A stretch of 64,000 bases of DNA. Origin: Methanobacteriota archaeon (GTDB lineage Archaea > Thermoplasmatota > E2 > DHVEG-1). Location of the stretch: NCBI GenBank assembly GCA_963769885.1, contig CAVYNH010000004.1:75904-139903 (forward strand), given 5' to 3'. Below are positions 13,166 to 14,600 of the stretch, one piece after another (positions within the stretch are counted from its first letter, which is position 1; each line of letters opens with the position of its first letter). Under the pieces are notes generated by a model that was given only the letters and a program-made list of their open reading frames with translations, ran no database searches and had not been told where the DNA came from. The position numbers and the translations under genes are program-made.

Positions 13166-13218
13166 TGAAATAGGGGCTTTGCCCTTATAATCCCTTCCGC
13201 CTTCGTTCCTTACATCTG
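13166..13218 (+). repeat. 5' half of a ~110-bp intergenic repeat family, interrupted by the IS110-family element
   Basis: tgaaataggggctttgccc...ccgccttcgttcct...catctg matches the 5' half of copies at 23071, 36818, 38307 and 41621; similarity ends at catctg (13213-13218). Confidence 0.6.
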
Positions 13219-14543
13219 ATGGCAGTAGAACCCTTTTTCTAAAGAGAATACTCAAGTGCTTCTTGCCATTAAAGCACTTGAATCTAAGGTGAGAACACAC
13301 TATGGAAACACTCTATGGAGGCATAGACATCCACAAAGAAAAACTAGCAGGCTGCATCATGGACAAGGATGGAACCATCACCAGAGAACACACCTTTCCA
13401 TCCTCAAGAAAGGCACTAGAACGCTTCCTCACCGGCATCCCCAACGCAGGCACAACCATCGCCATAGAAGCATGCGGAATGTGGAGAGGAACACACAAAA
13501 TATTAACAGACATGGGGTACGACGTCAAACTGGCGAACCCGAAGAAAATCCATGATATCGCCTGTAAAAAGAAAACCGATCGAGCCGATGCCAAAATCCT
13601 GACAGACCTCGTGAGGACGAAGTACCTCCCCGAGATCTGGATCCCAGACGAACACACCCTCAAGTTCAGGGATCTTACACGACACAAAGCCACCCTCACA
13701 CGACTCAAAACACAGATACAATGCAAGATCAAAAGCTACCAGCTCCGAAAAGGAGCACCATATAGCAAACACTGGAACAAAAACACCCTCGCAGCACTCA
13801 CCGAAGAAGAACCAGACATCCGAAACCTCATCACCATCTACACCACGATCACAGAAGAAGAAAAAGAAGTCATGAAAAGAATCAAACAACTTGCCCGACA
13901 GAACAAAGAAACAACCCTGCTCATGACCATCCCAGGCATCGCCGAATTCTCCTCCCTCATGATCCTCGCCGAAATCGGCGACATCCACCGCTTCAAAACA
14001 CCCAAAGAACTCATCAGCTACGCAGGCCTCTACCCAGGCGTCTACCAATCCGCCACCACCGAACGAACTGTCCGAAACACCGCCGTGAACAAATGGCTGA
14101 AATGGATCATCTACGAATGCTCAGGACGAGCCATCACACTCGACCCACGATTCCAACACTCCTACTACCCAATCCAGAAACGAAAAGGACAACAGACTGC
14201 ACGACGATCCACCGCACGCAAAATGCTCACCATCATATGGTATATACTCACCAACCAAGAACCCTACAAAGCATCATAAAAAAAAAGCATTCAGAGTCCT
14301 CTATCGGACAACAAATCATGGAGGGCAAGGGCACCCCCAAAGACCCGCTAAGCCAAACAACACACTAGCTGTCTGAGCTTCCTCATCTGATTTGGGGGCT
14401 CTTCAACCACTTGCCACAATGTGCCACACAGAACGATGTGAGCACCCAGGAATGCTTGTGGATTAAGCCCTTGCCAACAAAAAATATTAATCAAAACGGA
14501 GGATACCAAAATAGCGAAACAGGAAAAAGAGTTCTAAGGAATG
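13219..14543 (+). mobile_element. IS110-family insertion sequence (~1.3 kb) inserted within a repeat copy
   Basis: Transposase ORF 13302..14279 flanked by the two halves of an otherwise contiguous repeat (intact copies read ...catctgcgg...); short 5' non-coding end (~80 bp), longer 3' non-coding end (~260 bp); no terminal inverted repeats noticed, as typical for IS110. Confidence 0.65.
13302..14279 (+). CDS. IS110-family transposase (DEDD-type)
   Basis: N-terminal METLYGGIDIHKEKLAGCIMDKDG (GIDxxK start) and C-terminal LLMTIPGIAEFSSLMILAEIGDIHRF block characteristic of IS110/IS116/IS902 transposases. Confidence 0.8.
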   Translation: METLYGGIDIHKEKLAGCIMDKDGTITREHTFPSSRKALERFLTGIPNAGTTIAIEACGMWRGTHKILTDMGYDVKLANPKKIHDIACKKKTDRADAKILTDLVRTKYLPEIWIPDEHTLKFRDLTRHKATLTRLKTQIQCKIKSYQLRKGAPYSKHWNKNTLAALTEEEPDIRNLITIYTTITEEEKEVMKRIKQLARQNKETTLLMTIPGIAEFSSLMILAEIGDIHRFKTPKELISYAGLYPGVYQSATTERTVRNTAVNKWLKWIIYECSGRAITLDPRFQHSYYPIQKRKGQQTARRSTARKMLTIIWYILTNQEPYKAS

Positions 14544-14600
14544 CGGGTCTTACGCTAATGCTTCAGACCGCGCAGTATTCCCGGCCGCTACGGATAAAAT
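14544..14600 (+). repeat. 3' half of the interrupted repeat copy
   Basis: cgggtcttacgctaatgcttcagaccgcgcagtattcccggccgctacggataaaatc matches 3' halves of intact copies (e.g. 38360-38417). Confidence 0.6.

What the first reader, a model, noticed from the sequence alone, without database searches (positions are those of the whole stretch)
13166..14600. IS110-family element inserted precisely into one copy of a conserved intergenic repeat
The two halves of a ~110-bp repeat that is contiguous at four other loci are separated here by ~1.3 kb carrying an IS110-type transposase. The left junction follows catctg and the right junction resumes at cgggtcttacgc, matching intact copies (...catctgcgg...). 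IS110/IS1111 elements are known to target specific repeated sequences without terminal inverted repeats or target duplications. The repeat is probably the preferred target and the intact copies preserve the empty site.
Basis: partly seen in the sequence, partly recalled or inferred. Interest (0 to 1): 0.7.

Follow-up and report, generated by a model that had tools for sequence, protein, structure and literature searches.

The report
RNA-guided IS1111-type element inside an IS200 MITE
A 1.3-kb jumping gene of the IS110/IS1111 family sits precisely inside a miniature copy of another jumping gene (an IS200-type element) in an archaeal genome, and it carries a guide RNA whose loops match both that insertion site and its own ends, so it is a clear but ordinary new member of the recently described bridge-RNA/seekRNA transposons.

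Summary
Window 13219-14543 is a 1,325-bp IS110-family element. It splits a ~112-bp repeat (13165-13218 / 14544-14597) that is uninterrupted at 23069, 38303 and 41616, and across the same point at 21386.

1. The "intergenic repeat" is a MITE. It consists of the two ends of a ~0.72-kb IS200-group element (Y1/HUH TnpA). The insertion point lies in that element's left end.

2. The IS has the IS1111-type layout:
- an 83-nt left end and a 264-nt right end;
- 14-bp subterminal inverted repeats;
- intact D-E-D-D plus Ser catalytic residues.

Its right end encodes a two-loop bridge/seek RNA (about 14323-14475). One loop carries AAAGACCCGC, which is complementary to the right flank, and CAUCUG, which is identical to the left flank. 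The other loop matches the IS termini.

I fetched 92 related loci, mostly from Thermoplasmata MAGs and sediment metagenomes. Across them the guide segments covary with the flanks (0 of 20,000 permutations reached the observed match). Seventeen relatives carrying the same guide sit at the same IS200 left-end site.

RNA expression, circle formation and current activity were not tested. Verdict: a real feature and a new member of a known kind, of modest interest.

The parts
13165..13218 (+). Left half of the interrupted MITE. This is the right-end (RE) portion of the IS200-group element and includes the hairpin TAGGGGC-TTT-GCCCTTA. It ends with the left target CATC plus the core TG.
13219..14543 (+). 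IS110-family (IS1111-type) insertion sequence, 1,325 bp, counted with one copy of the TG core (14542-14543).
13219..13301 (+). Short left end (83 nt). It comprises the 7-nt terminal extension ATGGCAG, the subterminal IR TAGAACCCTTTTTC (13226-13239), a conserved hairpin (13254-13279) and a GGTGA ribosome-binding motif.
13302..14279 (+). DEDD/Ser recombinase gene (325 aa). D9, E56, D93, D96 and S250 align with IS621 D11, E60, D102, D105 and S241.
14323..14475 (+). Predicted bridge/seek RNA core. The closing stem is GGGCAAGGGC (14323-14332) with GCCCTTGCC (14467-14475), and it encloses two stem-loops that each have an internal loop.
14334..14398 (+). Target-binding stem-loop. [quoted passage not shown] On the 3' side, (C)CTCATCTG (14381-14389) is identical to the left flank CATC-TG.
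14407..14461 (+). Donor-binding stem-loop. On the 5' side, TTGCCA (14411-14416) is complementary to IS left-end nt 2-7, TGGCAG. On the 3' side, AGGAATG (14448-14454) is identical to the last 7 nt of the right end.
14523..14543 (+). Right terminus. It comprises the subterminal IR GAAAAAGAGTTCTA (14523-14536; 13 of 14 complementary to the left IR) and the terminal AGGAA plus the core TG.
14544..14597 (+). Right half of the interrupted MITE. This is the terminal ~55 nt of the IS200-group left end. It starts with the right target CGGGTCTT and ends at ...GGATAA.
23069..23180 (+). Intact MITE copy (empty site CATCTG|CGGATCTG; 6 of 8 match to the right guide).
38303..38415 (+). Intact MITE copy whose target site has diverged (TTCTTTATAGGACTT; no TG core).
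41616..41727 (+). Intact MITE copy (empty site CATCTG|CGGGCCTT; 7 of 8 match to the right guide).
20896..21420 (-). Truncated IS200-group copy. Its tnpA is frameshifted (21258 to 20938 on the minus strand; 71% identity to the L071 TnpA). Its left end contains an empty, imperfect target CATCAG|CGAGTCTT.
36817..37096 (-). Remnant of an IS200-group copy, consisting of the RE hairpin region plus the C-terminal part of tnpA.

Best explanation
Window 13219-14543 is an IS1111-group member of the IS110 family, carried in an archaeal genome. It encodes a DEDD/Ser recombinase. Downstream of that gene, in its long right end, it encodes a bridge RNA (seekRNA) of about 150 nt with two internal loops.

The proposed mechanism runs as follows.
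1. The element excises as a circle, with its ends abutted around a TG core (...AAGGAA-TG-ATGGCAG...).
2. The donor loop of the RNA pairs with both sides of this junction. [quoted passage not shown]
3. The target loop pairs with the target ...CATC-TG-CGGGTCTT.... AAAGACCCGC pairs with the top strand on the right, and CAUCUG pairs with the bottom strand on the left.
4. The recombinase exchanges strands at the TG core. This inserts the IS in a fixed orientation with no target duplication.

The chosen target lies about 55-60 bp inside the left end of an IS200-group (Y1/HUH TnpA) element and of its ~112-bp MITE derivative. That gives the IS many dispensable landing sites.

What is shown:
- the anatomy of the element and the protein family;
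- conservation of the catalytic residues;
- the precise split of the MITE;
- complementarity between guides and flanks and between guides and the IS ends;
- covariation of the guides with flanks across relatives.

What is inferred:
- that the RNA is made, and from the + strand;
- that a circular intermediate forms;
- the strand-exchange chemistry;
- that this particular copy is still active.
For: **Protein.**
- Pfam and NCBIfam matches are above their cutoffs.
- D9, E56, D93, D96 and S250 align to the IS621 catalytic residues.

**Layout.**
- The left end is 83 nt and the right end 264 nt.
- The 14-bp subterminal IRs match at 13 of 14 positions.
- This agrees with the published IS1111 definition: short LE, long RE, STIR of 7-17 bp, bridge RNA in the RE (PMC11208160).

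**RNA.**
- The MFE fold places the two flank-matching segments on opposite sides of one internal loop.
- In 51 relatives the scaffold helices are 96.5% paired, against 31-52% when the 3' partners are slid by 1-3 columns. GC to AU compensatory changes occur in the two apical helices.
- The variable positions fall exactly in the guide segments.

**Guide-target covariation, over 23 distinct right-guide classes.**
- Own-flank complementarity is 5.26 of 8, against 2.70 +/- 0.30 for permuted flanks.
- The left guide scores 3.43 of 6, against 1.79 +/- 0.25.
- None of 20,000 permutations reached the observed values.
- One example is guide GAUUUGAAC with flank TG-TTCAAATC. Another is CAAUUUCGC with TG-CGAAATTG.

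**Donor loop.**
- The variant UUACCA occurs only with the left-end variant TGGTAG (6 loci against 0).
- The right-end variant AAGAGGTG co-occurs with the loop variant AAGAGGUG.

**Strand.** 22 donor-loop/end combinations are G:T or U:G wobbles for a + strand RNA. None of the opposite kind was seen.

**Guide order.** The top-strand complement comes first, as reported for IS1111 seekRNAs (PMC11187229).

**Same-guide relatives.** Seventeen loci are inserted at the identical point of the same IS200 left-end sequence.

**Target identity.**
- Y1_Tnp genes lie adjacent in L015, L020, L024, L071 and L082, and in the window.
- The MITE aligns to the two ends of the reconstituted 0.72-kb element.
Against: - There is no direct evidence that the RNA is transcribed, and no archaeal promoter or RNA ends were defined.
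- Stem G:U versus A:C counts (14 against 18) do not identify the transcribed strand.
- Covariation in the long closing stem is nil, because that stem is almost invariant.
- RNAalifold's unconstrained consensus did not recover the closing stem.
- The left-guide match is short, at 4 nt plus the core.
- A minority of relatives (for example L007, L047, L053, L059) show poor guide-flank matches. Some of these are probably due to mis-called right ends.
- Only one IS copy is in the window, no identical protein is on record, and the closest relative is 80% identical. Current activity is therefore unknown.
- The source genome could not be searched for further copies.
Confidence: 0.85

Rival explanations
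1. The recombinase protein alone recognises the repeat, as in classical site-specific recombination. On this view the right-end similarity to the flanks is incidental.
For: The target is a structured, conserved sequence that a protein could read. No RNA has been demonstrated here. The scaffold stems show little covariation.
Against: The recombinases of relatives are 51-80% identical and the IS ends are conserved, yet the elements sit in more than 20 different target sequences. In each case the target is mirrored by the two variable segments of the right end. None of 20,000 permutations reached the observed match. Published experiments show the RNA is essential in this family (PMC11208160, PMC11187229).
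Confidence: 0.04
2. The repeat halves belong to the mobile unit itself. The element would then be a 1.43-kb transposon whose ends are the IS200-type hairpins, carrying the IS110-type gene as cargo, rather than an IS110 insertion into a pre-existing MITE.
For: The IS200 left-end and right-end hairpins remain intact on either side of the insert. L016 and L018 share a 100% identical 1,561-bp IS200::IS110 composite whose homology stops exactly at the IS200 left-end boundary. A Y1 TnpA could therefore, in principle, move the composite.
Against: Intact MITE copies without the insert exist in the same window. The same IS ends occur in many flanks unrelated to IS200. The guide loops match the junction. 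All of this shows that the primary event was an IS110-type insertion. Secondary mobilisation as a composite is not excluded.
Confidence: 0.05
3. The copy is a decaying relic that no longer moves.
For: There is a single copy in 64 kb. No identical protein is found in public collections. The best relatives are 79-80% identical. One mismatch is present in the subterminal IR.
Against: The 325-aa ORF is uninterrupted and all five catalytic residues are present. The bridge-RNA scaffold is intact. The right guide matches its own flank at 8 of 8 positions plus the core G, and the left guide matches CATCTG.
Confidence: 0.3

Closest known systems
IS1111-group insertion sequences with seekRNA/bridge RNA (e.g. 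ISEc11, ISKpn4, ISPa11, ISPst6; Siddiquee et al. 2024, PMC11187229; Durrant et al. 2024, PMC11208160)
   Same: - DEDD recombinase with a long non-coding region downstream of tnp.
- Subterminal inverted repeats, with a 7-nt extension beyond the left IR.
- An RNA with a top-strand complement followed by a bottom-strand match.
- No target duplication.
- A preference for repeated or mobile DNA, such as attC sites and Tn21 inverted repeats.
   Different: - The hosts are archaeal (Thermoplasmata-type).
- The core is TG.
- The right extension beyond the IR is 5 nt plus the core, rather than the 3 nt reported.
- The target is the left end of an IS200-group element or its MITE.
- The RNA matches no Rfam family.
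- The protein is only distantly related to characterised members (PDB hits at E of about 1e-12 to 1e-18).
IS621 / ISCro4 (IS110 group) bridge recombinases, with solved structures 8WT6 and 9T56
   Same: - The same two-domain recombinase, with aligned D-E-D-D and Ser residues.
- A two-loop RNA that reads target and donor on both strands around a dinucleotide core.
- IS621 also lands in repetitive (REP) elements.
   Different: - In IS621 the RNA is encoded in the left end, upstream of tnp.
- The guide order is reversed.
- The core is CT.
- The STIRs are only 2-3 bp.
ISEc21 (IS110 family) targeting IS3-family transposase genes; IS4321/IS5075 targeting Tn21-family terminal repeats
   Same: An IS110/IS1111-family element whose natural target is another mobile element.
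   Different: Here the target is a non-coding site about 55-60 bp inside the left end of an IS200-group element, and it is also present in MITE derivatives. I did not find this combination in the papers searched.
IS200-group elements and their MITEs (PATE-like elements) - the target, not the IS
   Same: - An element of about 0.72 kb with a single Y1/HUH tnpA.
- Subterminal hairpins instead of terminal IRs.
- Miniature derivatives made of the two ends.
- All copies in one orientation.
   Different: The TnpA is divergent. It scores above the Pfam cutoff but below the NCBIfam IS200 cutoff. The exact cleavage sites were not defined.

Membership tests
IS110 family (DEDD transposase IS) | Protein with DEDD_Tnp_IS110 (PF01548) plus Transposase_20 (PF02371) domains | tested here: met
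   73.2 and 71.8 bits, both above the gathering scores. NF033542 at 207.8 bits against a cutoff of 140.
IS110 family (DEDD transposase IS) | Catalytic D-E-D-D (RuvC-like) plus a Ser nucleophile in the C-terminal domain | tested here: met
   D9, E56, D93, D96 and S250 align with IS621 D11, E60, D102, D105 and S241. They are conserved in 11 relatives; the Ser position is Thr in two of them.
IS110 family (DEDD transposase IS) | Site-specific insertion without target-site duplication, with a short core shared by the donor junction and the target | tested here: met
   the joined flanks equal the intact copies. Only TG is present at both junctions. TG is conserved at the junctions of most relatives.
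IS110 family (DEDD transposase IS) | Circular intermediate with abutted ends | not testable with these tools
   This needs reads or PCR across AAGGAA-TG-ATGGCAG.
IS1111 group | Short left end, long non-coding right end downstream of tnp | tested here: met
   83 nt against 264 nt. Definition from PMC11208160 and PMC11187229.
IS1111 group | Subterminal inverted repeats of 7-17 bp | tested here: met
   TAGAACCCTTTTTC (13226-13239) against GAAAAAGAGTTCTA (14523-14536), 13 of 14 complementary. Perfect 14 of 14 in most relatives.
IS1111 group | Asymmetric extensions beyond the IRs (reported as 7 or 6 bp on the left, 3 bp on the right) | tested here: inconclusive
   The left extension ATGGCAG is 7 nt. 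The right is AGGAA (5 nt) plus the TG core. It differs from the 3 bp quoted in PMC11187229. The boundary is ambiguous by the 2-nt core.
Bridge RNA / seekRNA | [quoted passage not shown] | tested here: met
   AAAGACCCGC and CAUCUG lie across one internal loop. The order (top-strand complement first) is as published for IS1111.
Bridge RNA / seekRNA | Guide segments covary with natural target sequences across relatives | tested here: met
   0 of 20,000 permutations reach the observed match for either guide, over 23 guide classes.
Bridge RNA / seekRNA | Second loop matching the IS ends (donor) | tested here: met
   UUGCCA pairs with TGGCAG, and AGGAAUG equals the RE terminus. Variants covary (UUACCA with TGGTAG; AAGAGGUG with AAGAGGTG).
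Bridge RNA / seekRNA | RNA is expressed, binds the recombinase and is required for transposition | not testable with these tools
   No transcript data are available. There is no Rfam model for this RNA.
IS200/IS605 family (identity of the target repeat) | Y1/HUH transposase (Y1_Tnp, PF01797) | tested here: met
   42.8-50.1 bits against a cutoff of 23 for intact genes in L020, L071 and L082; 29.8 bits for the window copy, which is frameshifted. All are below the NCBIfam IS200 cutoff (40-45 bits against 55).
IS200/IS605 family (identity of the target repeat) | Subterminal hairpins instead of terminal inverted repeats | tested here: inconclusive
   The RE hairpin TAGGGGC-NNN-GCCCCTA shows compensatory variants AAGGGC/GCCCTT. 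The left-end palindrome differs between variants and was not resolved.
MITE of that element | Short non-coding unit made of both ends of the full-length element | tested here: met
   MITE nt ~10-57 align to positions ~10-57 of the reconstituted 727-756-bp elements, and nt ~54-120 align to positions ~660-737.
REP / RAYT system (considered) | REP-associated tyrosine transposase | tested here: not met
   REP_Tyr_transpos reaches only 22.1 bits against a cutoff of 80. The IS200 model scores higher.
Integron attC sites (considered) | Repeats are cassette recombination sites next to an integron integrase | tested here: not met
   The repeats align to IS200-type element ends. The tyrosine recombinases in the window (48019-49014 and 56141-57493) are 6 kb or more away and score far below the integron-integrase cutoffs.

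The most novel reading that the evidence does not exclude
The IS may exploit the IS200-type element as more than a landing pad. The insertion point leaves both IS200 end hairpins intact. A MITE::IS110 or IS200::IS110 composite could therefore be moved in trans by the Y1 TnpA through single-strand transposition. That would give an RNA-guided recombinase a second, RNA-independent route of spread. L016 and L018 share an identical 1,561-bp composite that ends exactly at the IS200 boundary next to different flanks, as this idea predicts. In addition, this Thermoplasmata clade is a natural library of at least 23 reprogrammed IS1111-type bridge RNAs with a recognisable donor loop.
Probability: 0.15. 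Interest if true: 0.55.

Novelty: new member of a known kind. Interest (0 to 1): 0.35.

Why it matters
The finding adds a well-resolved archaeal clade to the bridge-RNA/seekRNA recombinases. It comes with a natural series of guide-target pairs and a clear donor loop, which is useful raw material for comparing IS1111-type and IS110-type RNA architectures and for mining new programmable recombinases. It also documents a layered parasitism: an RNA-guided IS that homes to the left end of an IS200-group element and its MITEs. For annotating this genome, it explains the split repeat and identifies the 'intergenic repeat' family as MITEs. It does not change the current understanding of how these elements work.

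Tried and rejected
- **Exact-protein look-up.** No record was found, so the source genome could not be searched for further copies. The single genome-collection scan returned only relatives of 79% identity or less.
- **Rfam.** Neither the gathering scan nor the E-value scans matched the right-end RNA or the IS200 left end.
- **The repeat as a small ORF.** I considered a 17-codon ORF on the minus strand and MRLFICGS... on the plus strand. Both were rejected. Copies differ by 2-nt indels, and the start or stop codons are not conserved.
- **The repeat as integron attC or REP.** Rejected; see the membership tests.
- **The repeat or the class-2 target as a tRNA fragment.** ARAGORN found no tRNA in any reconstituted empty site.
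- **RNAalifold on the raw MAFFT alignment.** It paired the 5' closing-stem strand locally instead of with its distal partner. I therefore scored a hand-drawn structure.
- **G:U versus A:C counts in stems to assign the strand.** Uninformative, at 14 against 18. The strand was inferred from wobble asymmetry in guide-DNA pairs instead.
- **Conserved proteins in the flanks of the second target class.** None was found beyond one locus sampled three times.
- **Long patterns at 3 mismatches or fewer.** These missed the repeat copies. BLAST was needed.
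Full report
**1. Observation**

The sequence at 13160-14600 reads ...CCTTCGTTCCTTACATCTG|ATGGCAGTAGAACC... at the left junction and ...GAGTTCTAAGGAATG|CGGGTCTTACGC... at the right junction.

A BLAST of the two flanks against the window finds the left half at 23069, 36817, 38303 and 41616. It finds the right half at 21386, 23148, 38363 and 41691. Joining 13160-13218 to 14544-14602 gives a sequence that aligns, with no gap at the junction, to three uninterrupted ~112-bp copies: 23069-23180, 38303-38415 and 41616-41727. 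Mean column identity is 82%. Whole-repeat E-values within the window range from 9e-27 to 2e-17.

The insert is 1,325 bp. TG is found at both junctions but only once in the intact copies. No other copy of the insert is in the window.

**2. What the insert is**

- **Protein.** The only credible ORF (13302-14279, 325 aa) matches Pfam DEDD_Tnp_IS110 and Transposase_20. It also matches NCBIfam NF033542, 'IS110 family RNA-guided transposase', at 207.8 bits against a cutoff of 140.
- **Catalytic residues.** Alignment to the solved IS621 and ISCro4 recombinases places D9, E56, D93, D96 and S250 opposite the IS621 catalytic D11, E60, D102, D105 and S241.
- **Non-coding ends.** They are asymmetric, at 83 nt on the left and 264 nt on the right.
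- **Inverted repeats.** A 14-bp subterminal inverted repeat is present (13226-13239 and 14523-14536, 13 of 14 complementary), set back 7 nt from each terminus.

These features match the published definition of the IS1111 group: short left end, long right end, STIRs of 7-17 bp and a bridge RNA in the right end (PMC11208160; PMC11187229).

**3. Host**

The window encodes archaeal aIF2-gamma at 60851-62092, which scores 651 bits against TIGR03680 (cutoff 514.5). It also carries an intron-containing tRNA at 62522-62642. Of the 12 genome-collection relatives of the recombinase, 10 come from Thermoplasmata, Thermoplasmatales or Methanobacteriota MAGs. The host is an archaeon.

**4. The guide RNA**

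Folding the right end gives a long closing stem, GGGCAAGGGC (14323-14332) with GCCCUUGCC (14467-14475). It encloses two stem-loops, and each has an internal loop.

In the first loop:
- the 5' strand AAAGACCCGC (14339-14348) is the reverse complement of the core G plus the right flank CGGGTCTT;
- the 3' strand ends in CAUCUG (14384-14389), which is identical to the left flank CATC plus the core TG.

In the second loop:
- the 5' strand UUGCCA (14411-14416) is complementary to nt 2-7 of the IS left end (TGGCAG);
- the 3' strand AGGAAUG (14448-14454) equals the last 7 nt of the right end.

This is the target-loop/donor-loop logic of bridge RNAs. The left guide pairs with the bottom strand and the right guide with the top strand, with the core included (PMC11208160). 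[quoted passage not shown]

**5. Comparative test**

One genome scan and one metagenome scan returned 92 loci that encode relatives at 51-80% identity. Their ends are conserved (TG|ATGGCAGTAGAACTCTTTTTC ... GAAAAAGAGTTCTAAGGAA|TG), but their flanks fall into many classes.

- **Where the variation lies.** In an alignment of 51 distinct right ends, the scaffold is nearly invariant. The variable columns are the two strands of the first internal loop and the apical hairpins.
- **Scaffold pairing.** A hand-drawn structure of 28 pairs is 96.5% paired, against 31-52% when the 3' partners are slid by 1-3 columns. GC to AU double changes occur in the two apical helices, in 15 and 8 sequences.
- **Right guide.** Taking one representative per distinct right guide (23 classes), each guide matches its own right flank at 5.26 of 8 positions on average. 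Permuted flanks give 2.70 +/- 0.30.
- **Left guide.** It scores 3.43 of 6, against 1.79 +/- 0.25 for permuted flanks.
- **Significance.** None of 20,000 permutations reached either observed value.
- **Examples.** GAUUUGAAC goes with TG-TTCAAATC, CAAUUUCGC with TG-CGAAATTG, and AAUAUGGAAC with TG-TTCCATATT.
- **Donor loop.** It varies little because the ends vary little, but where they do vary it follows. UUACCA occurs only with the left-end variant TGGTAG (6 loci, none with TGGCAG). The right-end variant AAGAGGTG goes with the loop variant AAGAGGUG.
- **Strand.** Twenty-two loop/end combinations are G:T or U:G wobbles if the RNA is read from the tnp strand, and none are of the opposite type. 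This favours a + strand RNA. Stem G:U counts do not discriminate.
- **Rfam.** No Rfam 15 family matches this RNA.

**6. What the repeat is**

Seventeen of the loci carry the same right guide, AAAGACCCGC (L009 carries a variant of it). These are L001, L002, L014-L022, L026, L050, L071, L076 and L082. All are inserted at the same point...(T/C)CATCTG|CGGGTCTTAC....

In most of them the left flank is not the window's left half. Instead it is a longer conserved sequence that leads, on the opposite strand, into a ~150-aa gene. Intact versions of that gene (L020, L071, L082) match Pfam Y1_Tnp, the IS200-like transposase, at 42.8-50.1 bits against a cutoff of 23. They also show HVHF and GFWSGY motifs.

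The window has the same arrangement at 20896-21420. There, tnpA runs from 21258 to 20938 on the minus strand, is 71% identical to the L071 protein, and is frameshifted.

Beyond the tnpA stop codon, those loci carry (A)TGAAATAGGGGC-NNN-GCCCCTAT..TTCCGCCTTCGTTCC. This is the left half of the window repeat, and its hairpin shows compensatory variants.

I reconstituted the elements from L015, L020, L071 and L082 by removing the IS110 insert. This gave units of 727-756 bp. The window's ~112-bp repeats align to their first ~57 nt and last ~75 nt.

The 'intergenic repeat' is therefore a MITE of an IS200-group element, and the IS110-type target lies about 55-60 bp inside that element's left end. A second remnant sits at 36817-37096. 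All six copies in the window have the same orientation.

**7. Why this copy?**

- The occupied site matches the right guide at 8 of 8 positions plus the core.
- The empty MITEs read CGGATCTG (6 of 8) and CGGGCCTT (7 of 8).
- The 38303 copy has lost the site.
- The 21386 copy has AG instead of the TG core and reads CGAGTCTT (7 of 8).

They fit guide-directed choice, but with so few sites they are not a statistical test.

**8. Comparison with what is known**

The mechanism, layout and behaviour are those of IS1111-group elements. IS110/IS1111-family elements that home to repeats or to other mobile elements are already documented:
- REP sequences (IS621, ISPpu9);
- attC sites;
- the terminal repeats of Tn21-family transposons;
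- IS3-family transposase genes, in the case of ISEc21.

Archaeal IS110 and IS1111 elements are also known. What is new here is the particular clade, its TG core, the 5-nt-plus-core right extension, the IS200 left-end/MITE target, and the explicit set of natural guide-target pairs. I rate it as a new member of a known kind.

**9. Limits**

- There are no transcript data, and no promoter or RNA ends were defined.
- The circular junction has not been observed.
- Some relatives show poor guide-flank matches. At least part of this comes from mis-called right ends. L045 is one example: the pipeline paired a right-end scar 183 nt downstream instead of the true end.

**10. Side observations**

- **Second target class.** The largest other target class of relatives is a ~45-bp motif (...ACCGGTAAAyTGGTG|TTCAAATCCCTTCCCCTGCAC...) found in at least 13 unrelated contexts. 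It contains no tRNA and has no shared neighbouring gene.
- **Identical composite.** L016 and L018 share a 100% identical 1,561-bp IS200::IS110 composite whose homology ends exactly at the IS200 boundary. This is compatible either with mobilisation of the composite or with two separate insertions.
- **Scar.** L045 keeps only a right-end scar at the target site.
- **Genomic neighbourhood.** The surrounding window looks like a variable, defence-rich region. It holds an OLD/GajA-like gene, an SbcCD-like pair, SIR2-like and TIR-domain genes, and two tyrosine recombinases, one of them next to a tRNA-Arg gene.

Noticed in passing
L003, L004, L025, L029, L032, L033, L036, L037, L040, L041, L043, L052, L067, L074 (flanks of the IS): The most common other target of this IS clade is a ~45-bp conserved motif, ...TTTTACCGGTAAAyTGGTG|TTCAAATCCCTTCCCCTGCAC.... 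It occurs in at least 13 unrelated contexts. ARAGORN finds no tRNA in the reconstituted sites and the flanks share no conserved protein, so its nature is unknown.
   Followed up: partly
L016:9-1569 versus L018:1-1561: The IS200::IS110 composite is 100% identical over 1,561 bp. Homology ends exactly at the IS200 left-end boundary (...GCAGTTAATAA), and the flanks beyond it differ. This fits either mobilisation of the composite by the Y1 TnpA or two independent insertions into identical IS200 copies.
   Followed up: partly
L045:2600-2700: An IS200-type left end carries only GAAAAAAGAG-TTCTAAGGAATG-CGGGTC at the target point. This is a solo right-end scar. It apparently arose by deletion between the A-rich run of the IS200 left end and the similar run in the IS110 subterminal repeat.
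   Followed up: no
L004, L029, L052 (RE ...GGAAGG); L017, L046, L074 (RE ...GGAAAG): In some relatives the dinucleotide at the right junction is GG or AG, while the left junction keeps TG. This suggests recombination between non-identical donor and target cores.
   Followed up: no
window 13254-13279: A conserved hairpin lies in the short left end (AAGTGCTT-CTTGCCATTA-AAGCACTT; present in nearly all relatives). Its loop, TTGCCAT, resembles the donor-loop segment UUGCCA. Its function is unknown; one possibility is regulation of tnp translation.
   Followed up: no
window 14479-14520: Between the RNA closing stem and the right subterminal repeat there is a conserved A/T-rich stretch (AAAAATATTAAT...; consensus GATAAAAATATAAACGAGGTGAATATTAATGTAACG in relatives). 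It could be an outward-facing archaeal TATA-type promoter that drives tnp only after circle formation. This was not tested.
   Followed up: no
window 13165-41727: All six IS200-type copies, MITEs and remnants in this 30-kb stretch have the same orientation. This would fit the known strand bias of single-strand IS200/IS605 transposition, which I state from general knowledge.
   Followed up: no
window 7028-16239 and 46917-57638: The neighbourhood is rich in defence-like and mobility genes:
- an OLD/GajA-like ATPase-nuclease (7028-8977, minus strand);
- a Metallophos plus SMC-like pair (9233-13053);
- a SIR2-like gene (15106-16239, minus strand);
- a TIR-domain protein (46917-47888);
- two tyrosine recombinases (48019-49014 and 56141-57493), the latter next to tRNA-Arg (57563-57638).
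It is probably an integrated or variable island.
   Followed up: partly
window 62522-62642: A tRNA gene with an intron (121 nt). Rfam detects it but ARAGORN in bacterial mode does not.
   Followed up: no
L001 and L010: Two relatives lie on short contigs binned as a Dehalococcoidales bacterium and as Nitrosotalea. All the others are from Thermoplasmata-type archaea. The cause could be mis-binning or horizontal transfer.
   Followed up: no
L053, L064, L066: Three loci with different left flanks and different guides share an identical sequence after the presumed right end (TGCCAAAGACATAATTAATAAATG...). Either the right end is longer in this subgroup or they share a common downstream module.
   Followed up: no
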